Both the position numbers and the translations under genes were made by a program. A stretch of 64,000 bases of DNA from contig CAMYKD010000018.1 in NCBI GenBank assembly GCA_947258885.1, positions 27,150-91,149 on the forward strand, read 5' to 3'. Shown piece after piece: positions 3,272 through 13,392 of the stretch; position 1 is the stretch's first letter, and every line of letters starts with the position of its first letter. The notes under the pieces were generated by a model. The model ran no database searches and had not been told where the DNA came from. It saw only the letters and a program-made list of their open reading frames with translations. The DNA comes from an uncultured Kiloniellales bacterium. Its GTDB lineage: Bacteria; Pseudomonadota; Alphaproteobacteria; Kiloniellales; JAKSDN01.

Positions 3272-5749
3272 GTGACCGCGCTATCCGCATTACCGGAGAA
3301 ACACCTCCCTCTGCCCCACCGCTTCGCCGAATGGTTCGCGGCGAAGGGCTGGCAACCCCACGCGCATCAGCTCGATATGCTGGCGGCGGCGGACTCGGGC
3401 AGGTCCGCGTTGCTGATCGCGCCGACCGGCGGCGGCAAGACCTTGGCCGGTTTCCTGCCCGCCCTGATCGACTTGGCGGAAAGCCCGCGCGACGGACTGC
3501 ACACGCTCTACGTCTCGCCCTTGAAGGCACTCGCCGTCGACATCCACCGCAACCTGACGCGGCCGATCCAGGAGCTGGGCCTCGACATTGACTGCGAGAC
3601 GCGCACCGGCGATACGCCCCAGGCCAAGCGCCAGCGCCAGCGTCGCCGCCCTCCACAACTTCTGCTGACCACGCCGGAATCGCTCGCCCTCCTGCTCTCC
3701 TACCACGACGCGCCGCAGGTGTTCGCAGGCCTGAACTCGGTGGTGGTCGACGAGTTGCATGCGCTGGCCGACAACAAGCGCGGCGATCTGCTGGCGCTCG
3801 GTCTGGCCCGCCTGCAAGGCTTGGCGCCCGGCTGCCGCCGGGTCGGCCTCTCGGCCACGGTGCACGACCCGCAGGCGCTGGTCGCCTGGCTCTCGCCGAC
3901 GGGGCGCCATGAGGACGCACCGCTCCGCCTGATCCAGGCCGGCGGGGGCGCCGCGCCCGAGGTCGAGATCCTGGGGACTCGCGCCCATCTGCCCTGGTCC
4001 GGACACATGGCGGTCCATGCCCTCGCCGAGGTCTTCGAGCGCATCCGCGCGGCACGCACCACGCTCGTCTTCGTCAACACCCGCGCCCAGGCTGAGATCG
4101 TGTTCCGCGAGCTGTGGCGGCTCAACGAGGAGGGCCTCGCGATCGCGCTGCACCACGGCAGCCTCTCGGCCGAACAGCGGCGCAAGGTCGAGGCGGCCAT
4201 GGCGCGCGGCGAGCTGCGCGCGGTGGTCGCGACCTCCTCGCTCGATCTCGGGGTCGACTGGGCGGCGGTCGATCTGGTGGTGCAGGTCGGCGCGCCCAAG
4301 GGCGTCTCGCGCCTGCTTCAACGCATCGGCCGGGCCAACCACCGCCTCGACCGGCCGAGCCGGGCGCTGCTCGTTCCGGCCAACCGCTTCGAGGTGCTGG
4401 AATGCCGTGCCGCGCTGGACGGCCTGCGCGCCGGCACCCTGGACGGCGACCCGGCCAAACCCGGCGGCCTCGACGTGCTGGCCCAGCACATCCTCGGCAC
4501 CGCCTGCTCCGGGCCCTTCGATGCCGAGACCCTCTACGCCGAGGTGACGCGCGCCGCGCCCTACGCCGCGCTCCCGCGCCCGGACTTCGACGACGTGCTG
4601 GCCTTCGTCGCCGACGGCGGCTACGCGCTCGGCGGTTACGAACGCTACCGGCGGCTCGGGCGAGACCGCGAAGGACGCTACCGGGTCGCCTCGCCGGCCC
4701 ATCTGCGCCGCTACCGCATGAACGTCGGCACGATCGTCGAAGCGCCGACGGTCCGGGTGAAGCTGAAGCGCGGCCGCATGCTGGGCGAGGTCGAAGAGCA
4801 CTTCGTCCGGGGCTTGGTCCCCGGCGACAGCTTCGTCTTCGCCGGCGAGCTCCTGACCTTCGAAGGCCTGCGCGAGACCTGGGCCGAGGTCATCCGCGGC
4901 CCTGCCGGCGGCGAACCCAAGGTGCCGGCCTACGCGGGAGGCCGCTTGCCGCTCTCGACCCACCTGGCCGAGCGCGTGCGCGCCATGCTCGAAGCCCCGG
5001 GACGTTGGCGTGACCTGCCGGCGAACGTCGCCGATTGGCTGTTCATGCAACGCCGGCGCTCGATCCTACCGCCGGTTGAAGGCCTGCTGGTCGAAACCTT
5101 CCCGCGCGGCCAAAAGCAGTTCCTGGTCGCCTACTGCTTCGAGGGGCGCAACGCGCACCAAACCCTCGGCATGCTGCTGACCCGGCGCATGGAGCGCGCG
5201 GGCCTGGGGCCGCTGGGCTTCGTCGCCACCGACTACGTGCTCGCGGTGTGGAGCCTCGAGCCCGTGACCGACGCGGCCGCGCTGCTCGACCAGGACATGC
5301 TGGGCGACGACCTGGAAGAATGGATGGCGGACTCCTCCATGCTGCGCCGGACCTTCCGCCAGGTCGCGGTGATCGCCGGCTTGATCGAGCGGCGCTATCC
5401 CGGCCGGGAAAAGAGCGGCCGTCAGGTCACCGTCAGCGCCGATTTGATCTACGACGTGCTGCGCAAGTACGAGCCGGACCACGTGCTGCTGCGCGCGACC
5501 CGGGCCGACGCCGCGGGCGGCCTGACCGACATCGGCCGCCTGGCCGGGCTGCTGGCCCGCGTCCAGGGTCGCATAACGCATCGCGCTCTGCCCCGGGTCT
5601 CGCCGCTCGCCGTGCCGGTCCTGCTCGAGATCGGCAAGGAACAGGTCACTGGCGCCGCGCTCGACGAATTGCTCGACGAAAGCGCGCGGGCGCTGATCGA
5701 GGAGGCCACGGGTAGGCTGCAGGTGATACAGGCGGAGCTGCCGCTGTGA
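3272..5749 (+). CDS. Lhr-like DEXH-box helicase (ligase-associated DNA damage response type)
   Basis: 825-aa ORF with GTG start. Helicase motifs present: APTGGGKT (Walker A), VVVDELHAL (DEXH), LSATV, QRIGRANH (motif VI), followed by a long Lhr-type C-terminal region. The stop overlaps the pdeM start (GTGA). Confidence 0.9.
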   Translation: MTALSALPEKHLPLPHRFAEWFAAKGWQPHAHQLDMLAAADSGRSALLIAPTGGGKTLAGFLPALIDLAESPRDGLHTLYVSPLKALAVDIHRNLTRPIQELGLDIDCETRTGDTPQAKRQRQRRRPPQLLLTTPESLALLLSYHDAPQVFAGLNSVVVDELHALADNKRGDLLALGLARLQGLAPGCRRVGLSATVHDPQALVAWLSPTGRHEDAPLRLIQAGGGAAPEVEILGTRAHLPWSGHMAVHALAEVFERIRAARTTLVFVNTRAQAEIVFRELWRLNEEGLAIALHHGSLSAEQRRKVEAAMARGELRAVVATSSLDLGVDWAAVDLVVQVGAPKGVSRLLQRIGRANHRLDRPSRALLVPANRFEVLECRAALDGLRAGTLDGDPAKPGGLDVLAQHILGTACSGPFDAETLYAEVTRAAPYAALPRPDFDDVLAFVADGGYALGGYERYRRLGRDREGRYRVASPAHLRRYRMNVGTIVEAPTVRVKLKRGRMLGEVEEHFVRGLVPGDSFVFAGELLTFEGLRETWAEVIRGPAGGEPKVPAYAGGRLPLSTHLAERVRAMLEAPGRWRDLPANVADWLFMQRRRSILPPVEGLLVETFPRGQKQFLVAYCFEGRNAHQTLGMLLTRRMERAGLGPLGFVATDYVLAVWSLEPVTDAAALLDQDMLGDDLEEWMADSSMLRRTFRQVAVIAGLIERRYPGREKSGRQVTVSADLIYDVLRKYEPDHVLLRATRADAAGGLTDIGRLAGLLARVQGRITHRALPRVSPLAVPVLLEIGKEQVTGAALDELLDESARALIEEATGRLQVIQAELPL

Positions 5750-6429
5750 GACGCGGTTCCGAGGTCCTGGTCAACGGCGTGGAGCTGCTGGCCGACGTTT
5801 CAGGAGCGCTCTACTGGCCGGCGCTGCGCACGCTGGTGGTCGCGGATCTGCATCTGGAGAAGGGCTCGGCATTCGCGGCACGAGGACAGCTGCTGCCGCC
5901 CTACGACAGCGCCGCGACGCTGCAGGCCCTGGCCGAGGTTATCGTCCGTCGCGATCCCGAGCGGGTCATCTGCCTGGGCGACAGCTTCCACGACGACGGC
6001 GCGGCCGGGCGCTTGGCGTCCGCCGACGGCGCGGCGTTGCGCCGCCTGACCGCCGCCCACGACTGGATCTGGATCGCGGGCAATCACGACCCTGTCCCCC
6101 CGGTCGCTTGGGGCGGGAAGGTCGAAACCCGGGTCACGCTGGGCGCGCTCGCATTCCGGCATCGGGCCGGCGGCGACCGCGCACCCGGGGAGATTTCGGG
6201 CCACTACCACCCCACGGCCTCGGTGCGCACGCGCGCCAGGCGGATCACTGGGCGCTGTTTCGTGGGCGACGGCAGGCGCCTGATTCTGCCCGCCTTCGGC
6301 GCCTACACCGGCGGCCTCGACGTGCTCGACCCGGCCATCGCCGGGCTTTTTCCGCGCGGCTTTTCGGTCCACCTGCTCGGCCGCGGCGCGGTCCACAGCT
6401 TCTCCGGGACGGCATTGGCGGCCGGATAG
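5746..6429 (+). CDS. pdeM: ligase-associated DNA damage response endonuclease PdeM (metallophosphoesterase)
   Basis: 227 aa. Calcineurin-like phosphoesterase motifs: VVADLHLEKG, CLGDSFHD, GNHDP, GHYHP. Translationally coupled to the upstream Lhr-like helicase. Confidence 0.85.
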   Translation: MRRGSEVLVNGVELLADVSGALYWPALRTLVVADLHLEKGSAFAARGQLLPPYDSAATLQALAEVIVRRDPERVICLGDSFHDDGAAGRLASADGAALRRLTAAHDWIWIAGNHDPVPPVAWGGKVETRVTLGALAFRHRAGGDRAPGEISGHYHPTASVRTRARRITGRCFVGDGRRLILPAFGAYTGGLDVLDPAIAGLFPRGFSVHLLGRGAVHSFSGTALAAG

Positions 6430-6683
6430 GTCCTGCGGGCCGGCGGCGACCCGTGGATCAGGAAGCCGATCGTCGGCGCGGGATTGCGGGTCGGTGCCAC
6501 CCATCACCGCTCATACCGGGGGCTCATGGGAAGTCAACAGATCGACCGGATCTGTGGCTGGGCCTGCGAGCACGCACCCTGAAACGAGATCTTTCGTTAT
6601 AGTTGCTTTCTTTTCAAGGATATTCTCCCTTCTCAACGTTCTGGGCCAGCCCCGTCAGGCAGTGCGGGCAATGATCTTTTTCG

Positions 6684-6708
6684 GGAAGAAATCGCCGGAC
6701 CGGGTGTT
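6684..6708 (+). promoter_or_regulatory. ECF-type promoter candidate upstream of G/S-rich gene 1
   Basis: GGAAG-AAATCGCCGGACCGGG-TGTT (GGAAG, N16, TGTT), ending 43 nt before ATG 6752. The same architecture recurs at 9664-9688(-), 9778-9802(+) and 11392-11416(+). The 16-nt block CGGGAAGAAATCGCCG is identical to the one at 11390-11405. Confidence 0.6.
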
Positions 6709-6751
6709 TTCTGAACAACGGCCATTGCAACTACAGAGTAGGTAAAATCTT

Positions 6752-7048
6752 ATGAAAAACAAAACCATAGCCGATGAAGCCGTCGAGACGAACGTCGACC
6801 TGGACCGGCGGCGAGCCCTTGCCCGTCTCGGGCTCGGTCTTTCGGCCGCCTACGCGGTCCCGGCCCTACTGACCTTGAGCCGCGGCGCCCACGCCTCGAG
6901 CGGCGATGGCGGCTCTGGCGGCTCGGGTGGCTCCGGCGGCGATAGCGGCTCCGGCGGCAGCGCCTCTGGCGCCAGCGTCAGCGGTCCGAGCAGCGACGAT
7001 CCGGCGGTCGTGTCGGACGGTAGCAGCGGCCCGTCCGTCGATCCCTAG
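6752..7048 (+). CDS. small Gly/Ser/Asp-rich protein 1 with conserved twin-Arg leader (candidate secreted protein or modified-peptide precursor)
   Basis: 98 aa: MKNKTIADEAVETNVDLDRRRALARLGLGLSAAYAVPALLTLSRGAHA|SSGDGGSGGSGGSGGDSGSGGSASGASVSGPSSDDPAVVSDGSSGPSVDP. It has a Tat-like RR n-region, an h-region and an AxA site. The core has no Lys, Arg or aromatic residues. Paralogous to the ORFs at 9890 and 11473. Confidence 0.75.
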   Translation: MKNKTIADEAVETNVDLDRRRALARLGLGLSAAYAVPALLTLSRGAHASSGDGGSGGSGGSGGDSGSGGSASGASVSGPSSDDPAVVSDGSSGPSVDP

Positions 7049-7065
7049 CCCTAGACAACTTTCAT

Positions 7066-7092
7066 CCGCCGGGCCCTTTACGGGCCCGGCGG
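7066..7092 (+). terminator. strong GC hairpin between G/S-rich gene 1 and the kinase-RRE gene (terminator/attenuator candidate)
   Basis: CCGCCGGGCCC-TTTAC-GGGCCCGGCGG forms an 11-bp perfect stem 18 nt after stop 7048. It is followed by GCTCTTTGT, which is only a weak U-tract. Confidence 0.5.
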
Positions 7093-7155
7093 GCTCTTTG
7101 TAGGATCCCCGACAGAGCGTGAGTCGAACAACGGCGTCGAGCCGGACGAGGCGCT

Positions 7156-8382
7156 GTGCCTGATAGATTGCTTCTCGAATTCGAAGGTCTGAGCCACCGG
7201 ATCGCCCTGCTGGACTGCCGCGAGGTCTATGCCTGCTTTCCGGGGGTGTTCCGCGGCTGGAAGATCCATGAAGCCGGAACCGCCGACCAACCCCCGATCC
7301 TGACCCTCGCGGGCTCTGGCGAAGGCTATACCCTGGAAACCCCCTGGCTCGACCAGCCGCTGGTGCGCCGCGACAAGATCGACGCGCTCTGCGGCTTCAT
7401 CGCCGAGTTCATCCGGGCCTATGTCAACGACGACCAGCGGCTGCTCTGCCTGCACGGCGCGGCAGCCGAGTTCGCCGGCAAACTCGTGGTCTTTCCGAAC
7501 CGCTACCGGGCCGGCAAGAGCGTGCTCTCCGCCTGCCTGGCGGCGGCCGGGGTGCGCCTCTTCGCCGACGACGTGCTGCCGATCGGCGGGCCGGACGACC
7601 TCGGCATGGCGCCGGGCATCGTGCCGCGTCTGCGGCTGCCGCTGCCGGACAACCTGACTCCGGCAACAAGGGACTTCCTGGAGGCCCGCCGGGGACCGAG
7701 CGGCAAGCGTTATCTCTACCTGGACTTGGCCGCGGCGGAACTCGCCAGCTACGGCACGCTGGCGCCCATCGGCGGTTTCGTGCTGCTCGAGCGGGAAGCG
7801 GGGGCGGATCTCGATCTCGCGCCGGTCGACCCGGGCGAGATGCTGCGCCAAGTGATCTGGCAGAACTTCGCCCGCGAGACCCCGGCGCCCGAGATCCTGC
7901 GGCGCCTGGAGCGCATCGTCGGTCGCGCCCGCTGCCTTCGCCTGCGCTACGACCGGGCGGACGAGGCCGTGGCCCTGCTCAAGGAAACATTCGCGAGCTG
8001 GCCCGCGGCCGCGGAGGATCCCGAAGGAGCGGTTCAGGATGCACATGGCCCGGGGCCGTCCGCGCCGACAGGGAACGTCCCGACCGGTTGCTATCTGCGC
8101 AATCCGGACATTACCGAAACGAAGGTGGGGGTGGAACACTTCCTGGCCGACTCGAAGGGCGCGGCGATCCACAACCTCAACGCCGTCGGCTCTGCGCTCT
8201 GGCAGCTCATGGCCGAGCCCAGGACCATCGATGAGCTGGTCGACCCGCTGCACGCCGCCTTTCCCGAGGTCGCTCGCACGCAGATCGAGCAGGACGTGCG
8301 CGCACTGCTCAAGGGTCTCATCGCCAAGCGGCTCGTGATGGCGGGATCCGAGGACATCCGGGGGCGCCAGAGCGCCTCGTGA
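7156..8382 (+). CDS. HprK-like serine kinase domain fused to C-terminal PqqD-family (RiPP recognition element-like) domain
   Basis: 408 aa, GTG start. The N-terminal ~300 aa carry HPr kinase C-domain-like motifs: LCLHGAAAEFAGKLVVF, the P-loop-like RYRAGKSVLSACL, and VRLFADDVLPI. The C-terminal ~90 aa are PqqD-like: AAIHNLNAVGSALWQLMAEPRTIDELVDPLHAAFPEVARTQIEQDVRALLKGLIAKRLV. Confidence 0.75.
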   Translation: MPDRLLLEFEGLSHRIALLDCREVYACFPGVFRGWKIHEAGTADQPPILTLAGSGEGYTLETPWLDQPLVRRDKIDALCGFIAEFIRAYVNDDQRLLCLHGAAAEFAGKLVVFPNRYRAGKSVLSACLAAAGVRLFADDVLPIGGPDDLGMAPGIVPRLRLPLPDNLTPATRDFLEARRGPSGKRYLYLDLAAAELASYGTLAPIGGFVLLEREAGADLDLAPVDPGEMLRQVIWQNFARETPAPEILRRLERIVGRARCLRLRYDRADEAVALLKETFASWPAAAEDPEGAVQDAHGPGPSAPTGNVPTGCYLRNPDITETKVGVEHFLADSKGAAIHNLNAVGSALWQLMAEPRTIDELVDPLHAAFPEVARTQIEQDVRALLKGLIAKRLVMAGSEDIRGRQSAS

Positions 8383-8403
8383 AAGGTGCCCCTGGAAAGC
8401 CGG

Positions 8404-9048
8404 CTAGCTGTCGCTGATCAGAACCAACCGCGTCTTCCACTGGCCCTCGGGCGCGCGGCAGGCGATGGCGCGGCGAATCTCCGATTTGCCGTCCAGCGCC
8501 TCCAACGCGGTGTATTCCCGGCACCACTGGCCGCCTCTGTTCTTGAAGGTGCGCACCGGCGTAATCTCGCCGGTCTTGCCGCTGTCCGGATTGCGCCAGG
8601 CAGCGGCCTCGCCGCTCACATTTTTCTCCAAGGCCTGGGTTAACGCCGCTTCCCTGACCCGCTGATCCGCCTGCCCGACGGCGTGGAGCCGGGCGATCTC
8701 CTGCTCGACCCGGTAGTCGACCAACAGGAACCCGCCGCCCAGCCCGACGATCAGCATGGCAAGCGACGCGGCAAGCGCAACGGGCCAAGGACTGCGCCAG
8801 GGACCGCTGCGGCTCGCCCGCTCGGCGGACGTTGCCTGGATCGCCTGGAGGACGCGGGCCGGAACCGGCGCGTTCAACGGTTCGTTGAAGGCCGAGCGCA
8901 ACAGCTCGGCGCTCTCGCGCAGCCGGCGGACGGTTTCGCGGGCTTCGGAATCCCCGGCAAGCGCCGCTTCCACGCGCGCAGTCTCGCTCTGGTCGAGTTG
9001 TCCGTCTACGTAGGCGACCAAGAATTCCGGATCGATAAATTGGGTCAT
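8404..9048 (-). CDS. anti-sigma factor, single TM, periplasmic surface-antigen-like Cys-pair domain
   Basis: Start at MTQFIDPEFLVAYVDGQLDQSETARVEAALAGDSEARETV, an anti-sigma N-terminal helix-type sequence. ATG 9048 lies 4 nt after the sigma stop. TM segment: WPVALAASLAMLIVGLGGGFLLV. C-terminal domain: W.NPDSGKTGEITPVRTFKNRGGQWCREY...ACRAPEGQW. Confidence 0.8.
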   Translation of the reverse strand: MTQFIDPEFLVAYVDGQLDQSETARVEAALAGDSEARETVRRLRESAELLRSAFNEPLNAPVPARVLQAIQATSAERASRSGPWRSPWPVALAASLAMLIVGLGGGFLLVDYRVEQEIARLHAVGQADQRVREAALTQALEKNVSGEAAAWRNPDSGKTGEITPVRTFKNRGGQWCREYTALEALDGKSEIRRAIACRAPEGQWKTRLVLISDS

Positions 9049-9052
9049 GACG

Positions 9053-9586
9053 TCACCTCGCCGGTTCCGGGGTCGGGGTCGGCTGTTCGCCGCCAACGAA
9101 GGCTTTCAGGGCCAGCCGCGCCCGGGCGAGGCGGCTGGTCACGGTGCCGATGGGCAGCTCCAGCATTTCCGAGACCTCCCGGTAGGACAGGCCCTCCACG
9201 GTAACAAGCAGCAGGATGGTCTTCTGCTCCTCGGGCAAGCGATCGACGAAACCGCGCACCGCCTCGAAGGTCATCTGCGCCTCGGCGGCCCGCACTCCGT
9301 CCACCGTGCCGTGCTCGACCGGGTCGATGCTGGCCAGGTGCTGGCCGCGCACGCCCTTGGCGCGCAGGTCGTTCAGATGGAGGTTGCGTGCGATGCGATA
9401 CATCCAACTGTCCAGCCGGGTCCCCGGTTGCCATTGATCGATGTGGCGGATCGCCCTTTCGCAGGTCGCCTGCAAAAGGTCGTCGCCGTCGTGCACAGAG
9501 CCGGTCAGGCCGTAGGCGAAGCGGCGCAGTCGGGGCAGAAACGCGAGCATTTCACGGCGAATCGTCTCGTCCAACTCTGATCGCAC
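9053..9586 (-). CDS. ECF (extracytoplasmic function) RNA polymerase sigma-70 family factor
   Basis: 177 aa. Region 2: DLLQATCERAIRHIDQWQPGTRLDSWMYRIARNLHLNDLRA. Region 4: LPEEQKTILLLVTVEGLSYREVSEMLELPIGTVTSRLARARLAL. GTG start at 9586; an alternative ATG lies at 9550. Confidence 0.9.
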   Translation of the reverse strand: MRSELDETIRREMLAFLPRLRRFAYGLTGSVHDGDDLLQATCERAIRHIDQWQPGTRLDSWMYRIARNLHLNDLRAKGVRGQHLASIDPVEHGTVDGVRAAEAQMTFEAVRGFVDRLPEEQKTILLLVTVEGLSYREVSEMLELPIGTVTSRLARARLALKAFVGGEQPTPTPEPAR

Positions 9587-9663
9587 CCTTTGCCTGAGAC
9601 CACCCTGGAGACCCTGGTGGACCTGAAGTGTCCCGGATCCTCGAGGACCGACCTCAATTCAAC

Positions 9664-9688
9664 AACACGCGAAATCGGGGTTTATTCC
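9664..9688 (-). promoter_or_regulatory. ECF-type promoter candidate upstream of the sigma gene (autoregulation)
   Basis: On the minus strand it reads GGAAT-AAACCCCGATTTCGCG-TGTT (N16). It lies 77 nt upstream of the sigma start at 9586. Confidence 0.55.
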
Positions 9689-9777
9689 CCCTGCACGACG
9701 CTATTACACTACTCAGTACCAGAGAAACCGACCTACGTTATGGTTAACGACCGTGTACGAAAAGACCCTTGGTCGGC

Positions 9778-9802
9778 GGAAGATTTCTTGCCCTGAGGTG
9801 TT
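9778..9802 (+). promoter_or_regulatory. ECF-type promoter candidate upstream of G/S-rich gene 2
   Basis: GGAAG-ATTTCTTGCCCTGAGG-TGTT (N16), 87 nt upstream of ATG 9890. It is divergent from the sigma-gene promoter candidate. Confidence 0.55.
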
Positions 9803-9889
9803 ATTTGGGCAAGACAGGTAGAGGTGGCGCTCCCTCGCGCCAGTCGCGGGGATCGCGGCAAAGAGTTACACACGGGCAGGAAGCAGTCG

Positions 9890-10432
9890 ATGTCGATCAA
9901 CCAGTTCCGGCGCAATCTTCGCCTACTCGCCTCGACCAGCGTCTTGGCCTGCGCGATTATTGGGGCGCCGGTCTCCGTACGGGTCCAGCTGGACGGCCCG
10001 GGTTGGCATTTCGAAGCGCCTCTGATCGGTTCCGGAGTTTTTCGTCATACCTCCGGCGAGAGCTTGGAGCCCGGCACCGCGGAGCTCGGTACCGACAGGA
10101 GCGCTGACGAAGCGCGGCGCAAGGCCCTGGCGCGCCTCGGCCTGGGTGAAGGCACACCCTATGAGCCTCCCGTATTGCTCACCCTGAGCCAGGCCCAGGC
10201 AGCGTCCGGCAGTGGCAGCGGTGGTGACAGCGGCGGTGATAGCGGTTCCTCAGGGGGCGACGACTCCGGTGGCAACAGCGGCCCCGGAGGGGCATCCGGC
10301 CCAAGCAGCGGCACATCGGGGACTTCCGGTACGGCCGGCGCGAGTGGCGGCAGCTTTGGCGACGTGGAGCAGGCAGGCCCCAGTCTCAGCCAGGATGAAG
10401 AGGCGACAGCGATCAGCACCGGTTGGCAGTGA
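9890..10432 (+). CDS. Gly/Ser-rich protein 2: own N-terminal signal, an internal copy of the conserved leader module, then a G/S-rich tail
   Basis: Preferred ATG 9890 (AGGAAG upstream). Signal: MSINQFRRNLRLLASTSVLACAIIGAPVS. After ~60 aa comes ...DEARRKALARLGLGEGTPYEPPVLLTLSQAQAASGSGSGGDSGGDSGSSGGDDSGGNSGPGG.... The track ORF starts at GTG 9824. Confidence 0.7.
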   Translation: MSINQFRRNLRLLASTSVLACAIIGAPVSVRVQLDGPGWHFEAPLIGSGVFRHTSGESLEPGTAELGTDRSADEARRKALARLGLGEGTPYEPPVLLTLSQAQAASGSGSGGDSGGDSGSSGGDDSGGNSGPGGASGPSSGTSGTSGTAGASGGSFGDVEQAGPSLSQDEEATAISTGWQ

Positions 10433-10812
10433 GTAGCCGCGTCCCGAATCCTTACTATGGACTGCCGTGGCTGGCAGCTTTCATGCTCGCGTCATGCACG
10501 GCGCAGGGTCCGGGATCATCCCAGGAGGCGGCGCGGGACACGTTCTACGATGGCTTGAGCACCGAGGAAATCGCGGTCGCGCAGCAGGCCGTCCAAGAGG
10601 CGCTCGAAAGCCGGCTGAGCAACGAGACGTCCCAGTGGACGTACCCAAACGGCAGCTCAGGCTCGGTCACGCCGCTCCGCACCTTCCGCACCAAGACGGG
10701 TCACTATTGCCGGGACTATGCCGAATCCCTCGCCAAGGGGTCTCAGCCGGGCTCCACCGTCAGGACGGCATGCCGCGGCAGCCAGGGTATATGGCGGGTG
10801 GTCAAGCGCTAA
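10423..10812 (+). CDS. lipoprotein with surface-antigen-like Cys-pair domain (paralog of the anti-sigma periplasmic domain)
   Basis: TTG 10423 (or GTG 10429) overlaps the end of the upstream gene. Lipobox: AAFMLASC. Domain: SQWTYPNGSSGSVTPLRTFRTKTGHYCRDY...ACRGSQGIW. It aligns position for position with the anti-sigma C-terminus. Confidence 0.7.
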   Translation: MAVSSRVPNPYYGLPWLAAFMLASCTAQGPGSSQEAARDTFYDGLSTEEIAVAQQAVQEALESRLSNETSQWTYPNGSSGSVTPLRTFRTKTGHYCRDYAESLAKGSQPGSTVRTACRGSQGIWRVVKR

Positions 10813-11080
10813 CGTCGGCCCCAGAGCGCTGGACCGCGCTCGACTTCGCGGTGCTCGCACGCATCGACAGCGTCAGCAACGCCGGAGGACAGCAAAACCA
10901 GCACGCCCGGCGAGCCGGCTAAGTCCGCCGGCGGTTTCGGCTGTCTCGAACAGATGGGCCCCGACCTGAGCACCGGCGACGAGGCCGAGGCCATCCAGCG
11001 TGGAGGGCAATAACAGCCACGCCTCGGATCGCCCTGCAGGGCCTGATCGGCAACCAAACCCCGCACTCGACAGACCGCGC

Positions 11081-11319
11081 CTAGCCCGCATTTCTCACAC
11101 TGTCCACGGTCTGCGTCGCGTTCAGGCGGTGCGCTCGGCTAGGAGAAGGGCGAAAAGCGCAGCCGTAGCTACGGTTGAGGCTTTCGACGCGGCCGACACC
11201 CGGCTGGGCGCGACCCAGCCGTGCGGCGCGATGCTGAAGCATCGGGCAAGCGGCTTGACGCACCCTGTTGGCGGGACAGCGTCGCGCAGACCATGGACAG
11301 TGTGAGAAATGCGGGCTAG
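11081..11319. repeat. ~239-bp element bounded by 35-bp inverted repeats (MITE-like element or long-stem structured RNA)
   Basis: The left arm at 11081-11115 is CTAGCCCGCATTTCTCACACTGTCCACGGTCTGCG. The right arm at 11285-11319 is its reverse complement with one mismatch. The interior holds several short palindromes (CCGTAGCTACGG, GGCTGGG..CCCAGCC, GATGCT..AGCATC). No credible ORF. Confidence 0.7.
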
Positions 11320-11391
11320 CGGCGGACTTACGGGTCTCGTCTACCGGTGGCCTTCCCGATCTCCCCGCACGAACTTTTCTTTCGCCGCGCG

Positions 11392-11416
11392 GGAAGAAAT
11401 CGCCGTTCGGCGTGTT
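11392..11416 (+). promoter_or_regulatory. ECF-type promoter candidate upstream of G/S-rich gene 3
   Basis: GGAAG-AAATCGCCGTTCGGCG-TGTT (N16), 56 nt upstream of ATG 11473. Confidence 0.6.
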
Positions 11417-11472
11417 TGGTTAATGGAAGGTTAACGCACTCCCTTTGTCCTACGCTCGAGAGGAGTTATGTC

Positions 11473-11877
11473 ATGAGCAACAAAACCGAAGAGAAAGCGA
11501 CCGACGGGCTCACGGCCGAAATGAATCGCCGCAGGGCACTTGCCCGCATTGGCTTGGGCGTTTCCGTTGCCTATGCAGCACCGGTCCTGATGAACCTAAG
11601 CCAAGCGGCGGCGTCGTCCGGCAGCGGTTCGAGCGGACCGAGCGGCCACGGCGGGCCGGACGGCGACGAAGGGTCGAGCGGCCACAGCGGGCCGAGCGGC
11701 CACGGCGAGTCGAGCGGCGACGAAGGGTCGAGCGGCGACGAAGGGTCGAGCGGCCACAGCGGGCCGAGCGACTATAGCGAAGGGCCCAGCTCTCCCTCGG
11801 GACCGAGCGACTATAGCGAAGGGCCCACCTCTCCCTCGGGACCGAGCGACTATAGCGAAGGGCCCACCTATCGCTAA
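11473..11877 (+). CDS. small Gly/Ser/His/Asp-rich protein 3 with conserved twin-Arg leader and tandem SDYSEGP repeats
   Basis: 134 aa from ATG 11473 (GAGGAG upstream). Sequence: MSNKTEEKATDGLTAEMNRRRALARIGLGVSVAYAAPVLMNLSQAAA|SSGSGSSGPSGHGG...(SGPSDYSEGPxSP)x3...TYR. The N-terminus and leader are collinear with gene 1. Confidence 0.75.
   Translation: MSNKTEEKATDGLTAEMNRRRALARIGLGVSVAYAAPVLMNLSQAAASSGSGSSGPSGHGGPDGDEGSSGHSGPSGHGESSGDEGSSGDEGSSGHSGPSDYSEGPSSPSGPSDYSEGPTSPSGPSDYSEGPTYR
11761..11870 (+). repeat. 39-bp in-frame tandem repeat (~2.8 copies) inside G/S-rich gene 3
   Basis: GG(G/A)CCGAGCGACTATAGCGAAGGGCCCA(G/C)CTCTCCCTCG occurs at 11761, 11800 and, truncated, at 11839. GGCGACGAAGGGTCGAGC is also repeated three times between ~11663 and 11751. 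Confidence 0.9.
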
Positions 11878-11991
11878 GAATCGAGGGGTCCTTCGGGCTC
11901 GATCGGTCTCACGCCGACCTAATCTCGGGGATCCTCGAGAACGCGGCAGAGAAAGCAGCGTTCGGAATGTGATGCGCGGCGAGGCCGGCCC

Positions 11992-13392
11992 CTACCCGGC
12001 CTCGCCGAGGCATTCGTCGAGGATGCCGAGCGCCCGGTCCATTTCGTCTTCGGTGACGACGAGCGGCGGGCTCAGGGTCAGCACGCTGCCCATGGTGGTT
12101 TTGAAGCTGAGCCCGCGGTCGAGCGCCCGATACAGGACCTCCTCGGTGGCCTCCGTCGCGGGCTCCTTGCTCTCCCTGTCGGCCACCAGCTCCAGTCCGA
12201 GCAGCAGCCCGCGCCCGCGCACGTCGCCGACCAAGCGATGCCGGTCCTTCAGGTCGTGCAACCGTTCGAGCGCGCGGGCCCCGACCTCGGCGGCATGCTC
12301 GACCAGCCCCTCCTGCTCGATGATCTCGATCGTGGTGAGCGCCGCCCGGGCGGTCACCGGGTTCTTTTCGTGGGTGTAGTGGCCGACCGCCCAGGCACCG
12401 GCCGCGTCCAGCCCGGGCTGGCAAAGCACGGCCGCAATGGGCAGCATGCCGCCGCCCAGCGCCTTGCCGAGAACCAGGATGTCCGGCACCACCGCCTCGT
12501 GCTCGCAGGCGAACATGCGCCCGGTCCGGCCCAGCCCGGTCGGGATCTCGTCGAAGATCAAGAGCGCCCCATGGTCGTCGCAGGCCTGGCGCACCGCCTG
12601 CCAGAAGCCCGGCGGCGGCAGGTAAGGCACGGCACGGGCCGGCTCGGCGACCACCGCCGCCACGTCGCCCTCCTTCTCCAGCACGTAGCGTACGAAATTG
12701 GCGCAGGTCATGTGGCAGAGATCGAGCTGTGGCCGACCGTCGCGATCCGGATAGCCATAGGGGCAGCGGTAGCAGGTGAAGGGGGCGACATGCTCGCCGC
12801 CCGGCAGCAGCGGCCCGACCGGCCCGGAGCGGAATAGCTGCTCGCCGCCAACGCTGGCGCCGCCGAAGCCCGCGCCGTGGAAAGAATCCCAGAACGACAC
12901 GGTCTTGTGCCGGCCCGTGGCCGCGCGGGCGACCTTGAGCGCCACGTCGATCGCGTCGGATCCGCCGGTCGTGAACAGCGCCTTGGAGAGCGCGCCCGGC
13001 GAGATCCCGGCCAGCTTGCGCGCCAGCGCCACGGCCGGCTCGCAGGTAAAGCGCCGCGGCGCGAAGGGCAACTCGTCGAGCTGCGCCTTGATCGCCGCCT
13101 TGAGCCGCGGATGGCCGTAGCCGATGTGATGGACGTTGTTGCCGTGGAAGTCCATGTAGCGCCGGCCGGCCAGGTCCTCGATCCAAATGCCCTCGGCGCG
13201 GCGCACGACCGAAAGGCAGGGCGTCGAGATCGACTGGTGCAGAAAGTAGCGGGCGTCCTGCTCGACCAGCGCCCGGGTCGCCGCATCGTGGGTCGCCGCC
13301 GTCCAGCGCCGCCGGCGTTCGGAGGTGTTGCTCTCGCCTTCCGAGAGATGCGGCACGGCTCCCGGCTTGACCTTGCCCTCATTTGTGCTCAT
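11992..13392 (-). CDS. class-III (fold-type I) PLP aminotransferase-family enzyme; candidate PbfA-type (R)-1-hydroxy-2-aminoethylphosphonate ammonia-lyase
   Basis: Start at MSTNEGKV (ATG 13392). Motifs: FTTGGSDAIDVALKVAR, LLIFDEIPTGLGRTG, VLGKALGGG (PLP Lys). Located directly downstream of phnW and phnX on the same strand. The PbfA assignment comes from context only. Confidence 0.8.
   Translation of the reverse strand: MSTNEGKVKPGAVPHLSEGESNTSERRRRWTAATHDAATRALVEQDARYFLHQSISTPCLSVVRRAEGIWIEDLAGRRYMDFHGNNVHHIGYGHPRLKAAIKAQLDELPFAPRRFTCEPAVALARKLAGISPGALSKALFTTGGSDAIDVALKVARAATGRHKTVSFWDSFHGAGFGGASVGGEQLFRSGPVGPLLPGGEHVAPFTCYRCPYGYPDRDGRPQLDLCHMTCANFVRYVLEKEGDVAAVVAEPARAVPYLPPPGFWQAVRQACDDHGALLIFDEIPTGLGRTGRMFACEHEAVVPDILVLGKALGGGMLPIAAVLCQPGLDAAGAWAVGHYTHEKNPVTARAALTTIEIIEQEGLVEHAAEVGARALERLHDLKDRHRLVGDVRGRGLLLGLELVADRESKEPATEATEEVLYRALDRGLSFKTTMGSVLTLSPPLVVTEDEMDRALGILDECLGEAG

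What the first reader, a model, noticed from the sequence alone, without database searches (positions are those of the whole stretch)
8404..10812. The anti-sigma periplasmic domain has a free lipoprotein paralog in the same locus
The anti-sigma C-terminus is W.NPDSGKTGEITPVRTFKNRGGQWCREY...RRAIACRAPEGQW. The lipoprotein at 10423-10812 reads WTYPNGSSGSVTPLRTFRTKTGHYCRDY...VRTACRGSQGIW. Both share the same spacing of W, P, G, TP-RTF, CR-Y, ACR and G-W. This is a surface-antigen-like two-Cys domain.

The lipoprotein gene overlaps the end of G/S-rich gene 2, so it would be sigma-induced. A soluble or lipid-anchored copy of the sensor domain under control of its own sigma suggests feedback, by ligand titration or as a decoy. 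It might also bind the G/S-rich products.
Basis: seen in the sequence. Interest (0 to 1): 0.55.

Follow-up and report, generated by a model that had tools for sequence, protein, structure and literature searches.

The report
Anti-sigma sensor with free lipoprotein twin
A membrane-bound regulator that holds a stress sigma factor in check has a sensor domain that is duplicated as a separate lipoprotein switched on by that same sigma factor. Both copies probably recognise a short conserved tail on a co-regulated secreted protein, which would give a testable feedback mechanism for a sigma-factor group whose trigger is unknown.

Summary
The periplasmic domain of the anti-sigma factor (8404-9048, -) and the lipoprotein (10429-10812, +) are both PF16998 "17 kDa surface antigen" domains. 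They are 36% identical by BLASTP (E 9e-15) and the profile comparison gives E 5e-24.

The pairing is not a local accident:
- All 13 related loci with enough flank have the same arrangement. An ECF sigma and anti-sigma sit divergent from a secreted low-complexity protein followed by a free 17k paralog.
- A promoter motif, GGAAGA-N14-GTGTT, lies upstream of the sigma gene and all three G/S-rich genes. It occurs only there in the 64 kb. It has the layout of the experimentally defined RpoE6 (ECF26) promoters of Sinorhizobium.

New here: only the last ~20 residues of the gene upstream of the lipoprotein are conserved (GPxLSxxEEAxAIxxGW[QKR]). In a sister subfamily, which includes rhizobial EcfR6, this same motif is fused to the anti-sigma's 17k domain as a C-terminal tail. 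Those loci lack a free paralog (0 of 4). AlphaFold2 models the fused tail with pLDDT 89-96.

Best reading: both 17k domains bind this tail, which would create a product-dependent feedback or titration loop. Binding and the sign of the feedback are untested. This is a new variant of ECF26-type signalling and of moderate interest.

The parts
6684..6708 (+). ECF-type promoter motif GGAAGA-N14-GTGTT upstream of GS1
   Evidence: one of only 4 matches in 64 kb (0.56 expected by chance). Conserved in L001-L003.
6752..7048 (+). GS1: small secreted G/S-rich protein with a twin-arginine-like signal (RRRALARLGLGLSAAYAVPALLTLSRGAHA). It has no C-terminal GWQ motif.
   Evidence: No Pfam or NCBIfam hit.
7065..7093 (+). 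Strong intrinsic-terminator-like hairpin after GS1
   Evidence: 12-bp stem with 11 GC pairs, followed by a T-rich tail.
7156..8382 (+). Fusion of an HprK-related P-loop domain with a PqqD (RiPP-recognition-element) domain. Present only in the window's own clade.
   Evidence: PF05402 PqqD E 9.7e-14. TIGR04352 HprK_rel_A E 1.4e-10, below its cut-off. Orthologs only in L001-L003.
8404..9048 (-). Anti-sigma factor, 214 aa. Layout: cytoplasmic anti-sigma domain, one TM helix (about 8719-8787), then a periplasmic PF16998 17k domain (about 8407-8670).
   Evidence: 342 clusters at 50% identity match the full-length profile at E<=1e-30.
9053..9586 (-). ECF sigma factor (sigma-2 and sigma-4 domains), ECF26/RpoE6-like
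   Evidence: Pfam Sigma70_r2 and Sigma70_r4_2. 47% identical (E 6e-47) to the RpoE6-type sigma of S. medicae pSymA.
9664..9688 (-). Autoregulatory ECF promoter motif GGAATA-N14-GTGTT upstream of the sigma/anti-sigma operon
   Evidence: Same layout as the S. meliloti RpoE6-dependent promoters GGAATA-N14-CCGTT.
9778..9802 (+). ECF promoter motif upstream of the GS2-lipoprotein operon
9890..10432 (+). GS2: Sec-signal protein with a vestigial Tat-like leader segment, a G/S-rich region and a conserved C-terminal motif
   Evidence: In other lineages the orthologs carry a Hint/BIL domain instead.
10343..10429 (+). Conserved C-terminal motif of GS2 (SGGSFGDVEQAGPSLSQDEEATAISTGWQ). Proposed ligand of the 17k domains.
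   Evidence: Conserved in every split locus. Homologous to the tails of tail-fused anti-sigmas: hhalign probability 95.7%, E 8.9e-9.
10429..10812 (+). Free 17k-domain lipoprotein: lipobox LASC, 17k domain at about 10576-10797
   Evidence: AF2 model pLDDT 81.5.
10930..11013 (+). Degenerate remnant of a second C-terminal motif (GGFGCLEQMGPDLSTGDEAEAIQRGGQ*) with no usable start codon
   Evidence: Absent from L001 and L002.
11392..11416 (+). ECF promoter motif upstream of GS3
11473..11877 (+). GS3: Tat-like-signal G/S/E/H-rich secreted protein with no C-terminal GWQ motif

Best explanation
This is an ECF26/RpoE6-like sigma/anti-sigma module.

**Components**
- The single-pass anti-sigma factor senses the periplasm through a 17k (PF16998) domain.
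- The sigma factor drives its own operon, three secreted low-complexity proteins (GS1-3) and a lipoprotein carrying a paralogous 17k domain. The lipoprotein is translationally coupled to GS2.

**Proposed mechanism (inferred, not shown)**
- Both 17k domains bind the conserved ~20-residue C-terminal tail of GS2, GPxLSxxEEAxAIxxGW[QKR]-COOH.
- The regulon product therefore reports back to the anti-sigma.
- The lipoprotein is made in fixed ratio with GS2. It competes for or buffers that tail, so the anti-sigma in effect reads the amount of GS2 tail not captured by the lipoprotein.
- In the sister subfamily the same tail is part of the anti-sigma and docks on its 17k domain in cis. By analogy, I take the tail-bound anti-sigma to be the stable, sigma-holding state. 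GS2 would then give negative feedback and the lipoprotein would relieve it. The sign of the loop is the least certain step.
For: **Shown**
- The two domains are homologous.
- The shared promoter motif occurs 4 times in 64 kb against 0.56 expected. All four sites are in promoter positions of the sigma gene and GS1-3. The motif is conserved in orthologous loci and matches mapped RpoE6 promoters (PMC6180224).
- The GS2 and lipoprotein genes overlap.
- The arrangement of sigma/anti-sigma(17k), motif protein and free 17k is conserved in 13 of 13 loci with enough flank: the window, L001-L004, L006-L010, L081, L084 and L090.
- Within the motif proteins only the signal peptide and the C-terminal motif are conserved. 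The middle varies between G/S-rich, G/D/E-rich, collagen-like GEE repeats, and forms with or without a Hint domain.
- The motif regex gives 17 hits, all in ECF-linked loci. It gives none in the 69 loci with generic 17k proteins.

**Rosetta stone**
- At least five anti-sigma clusters (P0086, P0240, P0249, P0253, P0259), plus the Agrobacterium pAt and Sinorhizobium pSymA EcfR6-type proteins, carry the motif as a C-terminal tail after the 17k domain.
- Tails against GS2-type C-termini: hhalign probability 95.7%, E 8.9e-9.
- Tail-fused loci have no free 17k gene (0 of 4).
- AF2 of P0086 gives pLDDT 89-96 for tail residues 251-274, after a linker at about 55.

**Shared signature**
- The Arg-Thr of P[VL]RTF is the only position conserved in both the anti-sigma and lipoprotein clades but not in generic 17k proteins.
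Against: - No physical binding data exist.
- For the fused tail only pLDDT is visible, not contacts or PAE. The tail alignment has 5 sequences.
- Tail-fused anti-sigmas lack the Arg of RTF, so cis and trans binding may differ.
- The NPDSG loop is conserved in anti-sigma and generic 17k domains but is degenerate in the lipoprotein clade. The two receptors are therefore not equivalent, and the anti-sigma may sense something else as well.
- Gene adjacency and coupling would also be expected if the lipoprotein were only a partner or chaperone of GS2 with no regulatory role.
- Some orthologs of the free 17k protein have a plain signal peptide and no lipobox (L006, L008, P0114). Lipid anchoring is therefore not essential.
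- The sign of the feedback is a guess.
Confidence: 0.45

Rival explanations
1. RseB/MucB-like model. The free 17k lipoprotein binds the anti-sigma's paralogous 17k domain directly, as a heterodimer of paralogs. It shields the anti-sigma from site-1 proteolysis, giving negative feedback without GS2 acting as ligand.
For: - Paralogous domains often dimerise (general knowledge).
- The lipoprotein is co-regulated with the sigma factor and is always co-inherited with the anti-sigma.
- The two clades show parallel branching in the NJ tree.
Against: - It does not explain why the C-terminal motif of the upstream gene is the only conserved part of that protein.
- It does not explain why the motif is fused to the anti-sigma exactly in those loci that lack the free paralog.
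- The lipoprotein shows no homology to RseB or MucB.
Confidence: 0.2
2. Output-only model. The lipoprotein is an envelope partner of GS2 (anchor, chaperone or export factor) and belongs to the regulon's function. The anti-sigma's 17k domain senses an unrelated envelope cue, as generic 17k proteins may. The paralogy reflects reuse of a domain and there is no feedback.
For: - Tight coupling with GS2.
- The anti-sigma keeps the generic NPDSG loop that the lipoprotein has lost.
- Many ECF regulons contain envelope proteins with no regulatory role (general knowledge).
Against: - Tail-fused anti-sigmas place the GS2-type motif on the sensor itself. This ties the motif to the anti-sigma's 17k domain, not only to the lipoprotein's.
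- The RT signature is shared by both clades.
Confidence: 0.25
3. Chance or a non-functional duplication. The similarity or the co-location is fortuitous.
For: None beyond the short length of the domain.
Against: - hhalign E 5e-24.
- Conservation of the pair across 13 loci and several families of Alphaproteobacteria.
Confidence: 0.02

Closest known systems
ECF26 sigma factors, especially S. meliloti RpoE6-EcfR6 with the divergent serine protease SMa0142 (PMC6180224; PMC3511301)
   Same: - The sigma is 47% identical to the pSymA RpoE6-type sigma of S. medicae.
- The anti-sigma is 27% identical over its full length, with the same layout of anti-sigma domain, TM helix and periplasmic domain.
- The promoter layout is the same: GGAA[T/G]A-N14-NNGTT.
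- It is autoregulated, and the divergent gene encodes a secreted protein with an acidic G-rich stretch.
   Different: - In EcfR6-type proteins the motif is a cis tail, the divergent gene is an S8 protease, and there is no free 17k paralog.
- Here the motif sits on a separate secreted protein and a free 17k lipoprotein is present.
- The rhizobial periplasmic domain is too diverged to hit PF16998.
- The trigger of ECF26 is described as hypothetical.
RseA-RseB / MucA-MucB (sigma-E/AlgU)
   Same: A regulon- or operon-encoded periplasmic protein modulates a single-pass anti-sigma factor from the periplasmic side (own knowledge; PMC7400510 listed).
   Different: - RseB is not a paralog of the RseA periplasmic domain.
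- No sequence relationship was found here.
DegS PDZ activation by C-terminal YxF peptides of unassembled porins
   Same: A free C-terminal peptide of an exported protein acts as the periplasmic signal for an ECF pathway (own knowledge).
   Different: - The receptor there is the PDZ domain of the site-1 protease, not the anti-sigma.
- The peptide there comes from misfolded porins, not from a dedicated regulon product.
PhyR-NepR-EcfG partner switch (sigma mimicry)
   Same: A paralog of one partner acts as a competitor or decoy within an ECF circuit (PMC4551977 listed; own knowledge).
   Different: - That switch is cytoplasmic, the mimic is of the sigma factor, and it is controlled by phosphorylation.
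- Here the duplicated part is the periplasmic sensor domain.
CpxP-CpxA, and RsgI-SigI of Clostridium thermocellum
   Same: - CpxP is a regulon-encoded periplasmic protein that feeds back on its sensor.
- In RsgI the anti-sigma sensor domain belongs to the same family as modules found in the regulated products.
- Both statements rest on my own knowledge.
   Different: Different domain families and different signalling chassis. No homology.

Membership tests
Pfam PF16998 17kDa_Anti_2 (RT0821/Lpp0805 surface-antigen domain) | HMM score above the gathering threshold (26.6 bits) | tested here: met
   Anti-sigma 38.2 bits, lipoprotein 29.7 bits.
Pfam PF16998 17kDa_Anti_2 (RT0821/Lpp0805 surface-antigen domain) | Conserved W...G..G..P...CR.Y...ACR..G.W skeleton with two Cys | tested here: met
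   These columns are invariant in the anti-sigma, lipoprotein and generic clades.
ECF (group IV) sigma-70 factors | Sigma-2 and sigma-4 domains only, with a co-transcribed anti-sigma | tested here: met
   Sigma70_r2 E 7e-15, Sigma70_r4_2 E 3.4e-15, TIGR02937 above its cut-off. The anti-sigma starts 4 nt after the sigma stop.
ECF26 group | Promoter consensus -35 GGAATA / -10 GT, with autoregulation | tested here: met
   GGAATA-N14-GTGTT lies upstream of the sigma gene and GGAAGA-N14-GTGTT upstream of GS1-3. The consensus is quoted from PMC6180224.
ECF26 group | Sigma sequence assigned by the ECF Hub group HMM | not testable with these tools
   Only a pairwise comparison was possible: 47% identity to an RpoE6-type sigma. 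The best NCBIfam matches are below their cut-offs.
ECF26 group | [quoted passage not shown] | tested here: inconclusive
   The architecture matches, and the protein aligns over its full length with the EcfR6-type protein (E 1e-14). The COG5662 model itself was not available.
Zinc-binding anti-sigma (ZAS) domain | zf-HC2 above threshold with an H-x3-C-x2-C motif | tested here: not met
   zf-HC2 scores 20.8 bits, below the 22.2 cut-off. The N-terminal sequence LVAYVDGQLD has no His or Cys ligands. It is an anti-sigma-domain fold without the zinc site.
Bacterial lipoproteins | Signal peptide ending in a lipobox [LVI][ASTVI][GAS]C | tested here: met
   ...LAAFMLAS-C, with the Cys conserved in at least 90% of 23 homologs. 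Lipidation itself cannot be tested here. A few orthologs lack the Cys.
RseB/MucB family | Homology to the RseB/MucB domains | tested here: not met
   No such Pfam or NCBIfam hit for the lipoprotein.

The most novel reading that the evidence does not exclude
The 17k domain and the GPxLSxxEEAxAIxxGW[QKR] tail form a dedicated periplasmic receptor-peptide pair. This pair is the long-missing signal-sensing element of RpoE6-type ECF26 systems.
- In rhizobial EcfR6-type anti-sigmas the tail docks in cis. It would be released or cleaved, for example by the co-regulated S8 protease, to activate sigma.
- In Kiloniellales-type loci the pair has been split. There is a secreted tail-bearing protein, in some lineages carrying a self-cleaving Hint domain, and two competing receptors. 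Together these would form a ratio-sensing circuit.
Probability: 0.3. Interest if true: 0.7.

Novelty: new variant of a known kind. Interest (0 to 1): 0.55.

Why it matters
- **An open question becomes testable.** ECF26 sigma factors are widespread in Proteobacteria, but how their anti-sigma factors are triggered is described as hypothetical (PMC6180224). This locus, its 13 split relatives and the tail-fused relatives point to a concrete hypothesis: a small two-Cys periplasmic domain recognises a defined C-terminal peptide, either in cis or in trans.
- **A function for PF16998.** If true, it would give the first molecular function for the PF16998 "17 kDa surface antigen" domain. No literature was found for that family, and the model has no solved structural relative by Foldseek.
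- **A rare kind of circuit.** It would add an example of a sensor-domain paralog acting as a competitor inside its own regulon.
- **If not true.** If binding is absent, this remains an ordinary uncharacterised ECF regulon with a duplicated domain.

Tried and rejected
- **Structure prediction of a lipoprotein-linker-GS2-tail chimera.** Binding in trans could therefore not be modelled.
- **PDB sequence search with the lipoprotein.** Nothing found.
- **Profile search for the C-terminal motif in the 5.8-billion-protein database.** A 29-aa query was rejected as too short. The 45-aa profile returned one marginal hit, so the motif's wider distribution is unknown.
- **Literature searches.** PF16998, 17kDa_Anti_2, RT0821 and IPR032635 returned nothing functional. 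The ECF reclassification paper does not mention the domain in its main text, and its supplements are not held.
- **The lipoprotein upstream of S. meliloti rpoE1 as the same thing.** I considered whether SMc01418 is a 17k lipoprotein. It is a "lipoprotein 15" repeat protein, not a 17k domain, so this was rejected.
- **L011 (Competibacter).** It looked like a gammaproteobacterial example, but it has no sigma factor and two overlapping head-to-head 17k ORFs. I set it aside.
- **Rfam scan of 6000-12500.** No RNA family found.
Full report
**1.

The region contains these genes:
- GS1 (6752-7048, +)
- an HprK-like/PqqD fusion (7156-8382, +)
- an anti-sigma factor (8404-9048, -)
- an ECF sigma factor (9053-9586, -)
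- GS2 (9890-10432, +)
- a lipoprotein (10429-10812, +)
- GS3 (11473-11877, +)

Pfam places both the anti-sigma C-terminus and the lipoprotein in PF16998 17kDa_Anti_2, each above the gathering score. BLASTP gives 36% identity over 77 residues, E 9e-15. Comparing alignments of 23 homologs of each gives hhalign probability 99.6%, E 5e-24 over 84 columns. The two Cys are invariant everywhere and face each other across a hairpin in the AF2 model. No third copy exists in the window.

The lipoprotein most likely starts at the GTG at 10429, overlapping the GS2 stop codon. That start gives a signal peptide with lipobox LASC, and the Cys is conserved in at least 90% of homologs.

**2. The lipoprotein belongs to the sigma factor's regulon (inferred from promoters)**

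The upstream regions of GS1, GS2 and GS3 share GGAAGA-N14-GTGTT. A search of the whole 64-kb window with one mismatch allowed finds four sites: those three, plus GGAATA-N14-GTGTT upstream of the sigma gene on the minus strand. Chance expectation is 0.56 sites, and no shuffle reached four.

The motif is conserved at the equivalent places in L001-L005 and L007-L009. It is recognisable in degenerate form in L006 and L010.

Its layout matches two published references from PMC6180224:
- the cross-species ECF26 consensus, -35 GGAATA / -10 GT
- the RpoE6-dependent promoters of S. meliloti, for example SMa0142 GGAATA-N14-CCGTT

The window's sigma factor is 47% identical to the RpoE6-type sigma of S. 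medicae pSymA. No convincing terminator separates GS2 from the lipoprotein; the only hairpin within GS2 (10020-10037) is weak (5 pairs). A strong terminator follows GS1.

**3. The paralog pair is a conserved module**

The full-length anti-sigma profile matches 93 clusters at 90% identity and 342 clusters at 50% identity at E<=1e-30. The named sources are mostly Kiloniellales and other Rhodospirillales metagenome-assembled genomes, plus the cultured Pelagibius marinus.

Every locus with enough upstream sequence has a free 17k protein encoded divergently from the sigma gene. These loci are the window, L001-L004, L006-L010, L081, L084 and L090. Anti-sigma identity in this set falls to about 35%.

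In a neighbour-joining tree the anti-sigma domains and the free proteins form two separate clades with parallel internal branching. Both are apart from the 69 generic 17k proteins of Rickettsiales, Xanthobacteraceae and others. This indicates an old duplication that has been co-inherited since. The tree is rough because the domain is short.

**4. What lies between them: a conserved C-terminal peptide**

The gene immediately upstream of the free 17k gene always encodes a signal-peptide protein with a low-complexity middle. The middle varies widely between lineages:
- G/S-rich in the window
- G/D/E-rich in Pelagibius
- GEE repeats that hit Pfam Collagen in L084
- with a Hint/intein-like domain in L004, L007, L009 and L010
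- without a Hint domain in the window, L001-L003 and L008

Only the last ~20-30 residues are conserved: FGxVEQVGPxLSxxEEAxAIxxGW[QKR]-COOH. A regular expression for this ending hits only ECF-linked loci. It gives no hits in the 69 generic 17k loci, about 1.2 Mb searched in six frames. GS1 and GS3 lack the motif. They share only a twin-arginine-like signal with one another and with an internal, apparently vestigial, segment of GS2.

**5. Rosetta-stone fusions**

Several anti-sigma homologs are 40-60 residues longer. Their extension ends in the same motif, for example P0240 ...GGPLTPEEEKALIGNGWR and P0086 ...GPIDAADEARLIRSGWR.
- Tails against the C-termini of the G-rich proteins: hhalign probability 95.7%, E 8.9e-9 over 20 columns.
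- Loci with a tailed anti-sigma contain no free 17k gene. This holds for L085, L091, Agrobacterium pAt (L093) and S. medicae pSymA (L094), that is 0 of 4, using a custom 17k HMM.
- Their divergent gene is instead an S8 serine protease with an acidic G-rich N-terminal stretch. This is the rpoE6/SMa0142 arrangement described for ECF26.
- The distribution is therefore complementary: a tail in cis, or a tail-bearing protein plus a second receptor in trans.

AlphaFold2 on P0086 models the tail (helix 245-254, strand 255-259, helix 262-270) at pLDDT 89-96 after a linker at about 55. This is what one expects if the tail packs on the domain, but contacts could not be inspected.

The Arg-Thr of P[VL]RTF is the only position conserved in both the anti-sigma and the lipoprotein clades and not in generic 17k proteins. 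The tailed anti-sigmas lack the Arg.

**6. Mechanism**

Shown:
- homology of the two domains
- conserved synteny of the module
- gene overlap between GS2 and the lipoprotein
- a shared promoter motif at the sigma gene and GS1-3
- a conserved C-terminal motif on GS2-type proteins
- fusions of that motif to the anti-sigma, and their complementary distribution with the free paralog

Inferred:
- Both 17k domains bind the GS2 tail.
- The lipoprotein, made in step with GS2, competes with the anti-sigma for it.
- Tail-bound anti-sigma is the resting state, so GS2 gives negative feedback that the lipoprotein buffers.

I put about 0.45 on the tail-binding/titration model as a whole. The sign of the feedback is the least secure part of it.

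Rivals:
- Direct heterodimerisation of the two 17k domains, RseB-like (0.2).
- A pure output role for the lipoprotein with no feedback (0.25).

A caveat for any decoy idea: the lipoprotein clade has lost the NPDSG loop, which the anti-sigma shares with generic 17k proteins.

**7. Comparison with known systems, and novelty**

The chassis is an ordinary ECF sigma with a single-pass anti-sigma, nearest to ECF26/RpoE6. The activation mechanism of that group is stated to be hypothetical.

The following were not found in any searchable paper:
- a PF16998 sensor domain on an anti-sigma factor
- its regulon-encoded paralog
- the conserved peptide

The domain has no solved structural relative by Foldseek. 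I rate this a new variant of a known kind, with interest about 0.55. It is not paradigm-changing. It does provide a specific, cheap-to-test hypothesis for a widespread and poorly understood ECF group, and for an uncharacterised "surface antigen" domain.

Noticed in passing
window 7156-8382 (+); orthologs in L001 3012-4232, L002 3855-5075, L003 10674-11870: A fusion of an HprK-related P-loop domain (TIGR04352, below cut-off) with a PqqD/RiPP-recognition domain (PF05402, E 1e-13). It occurs only in the window's own clade, next to the Tat-like-leader G/S-rich proteins GS1 and GS3 that carry the same ECF promoter. It may modify the Ser-rich proteins before export, for example by phosphorylation. 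Lineages that lack it have intrinsically acidic (D/E-rich) low-complexity regions instead.
   Followed up: partly
L010 8294-9343 and 6101-7171; L009, L007, L004, L006: In other lineages the orthologs of GS2 carry a Hint/bacterial-intein-like domain (CFVAGT...VVHNKGG) between the signal peptide and the acidic low-complexity region. Self-cleavage would release the tail-bearing fragment. The window's GS2 has lost the Hint domain. In its place it holds an internal, disrupted copy of the Tat-like leader found in GS1 and GS3.
   Followed up: partly
L004 792-1688, L007 6920-7630, L009 7160-7867, L010 7226-7897, L081 6377-7048, L083 729-1400, L084 3574-4245: A PKHD-type 2OG-Fe(II) oxygenase (PF13640 plus PKHD_C) directly follows the free 17k gene in many split loci. 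It is absent from the window and from L001-L003. In L084 it accompanies a GEE-repeat protein that hits Pfam Collagen (E 8e-19).
   Followed up: partly
window 10930-11013 and 11065-11335: Downstream of the lipoprotein there is a start-less remnant of a second C-terminal motif (…GPDLSTGDEAEAIQRGGQ*). It is followed by a 51-nt inverted-repeat pair (86% complementary, arms 169 nt apart). Both are missing from the closest relatives L001 and L002, so this is a window-specific insertion or rearrangement, possibly MITE-like.
   Followed up: partly
L093 (A. tumefaciens Ach5 pAt, 6001-6744) and L094 (S. medicae pSymA, 5001-5783): The rhizobial EcfR6-type anti-sigma factors have a periplasmic region that is a strongly diverged 17k-like domain (ATFRD..CRE[YF]E..VACR..G.W) plus the tail GY.PASS.ET.DAYLA.I.AG.PL..EEE. 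Pfam does not recognise it. This may be a new annotation for a studied S. meliloti system.
   Followed up: partly
L011 9878-10651 (Candidatus Competibacter MAG): Two 17k-domain ORFs overlap head-to-head on opposite strands, with no sigma factor nearby. One groups with the anti-sigma clade and the other with the lipoprotein clade in the tree. This could be an assembly artefact or a relic.
   Followed up: no
P0149 (391 aa) and P0167 (583 aa): Proteins with three tandem 17k domains, or with an N-terminal region plus two 17k domains. The domain is therefore also used in repeats outside anti-sigma factors.
   Followed up: no
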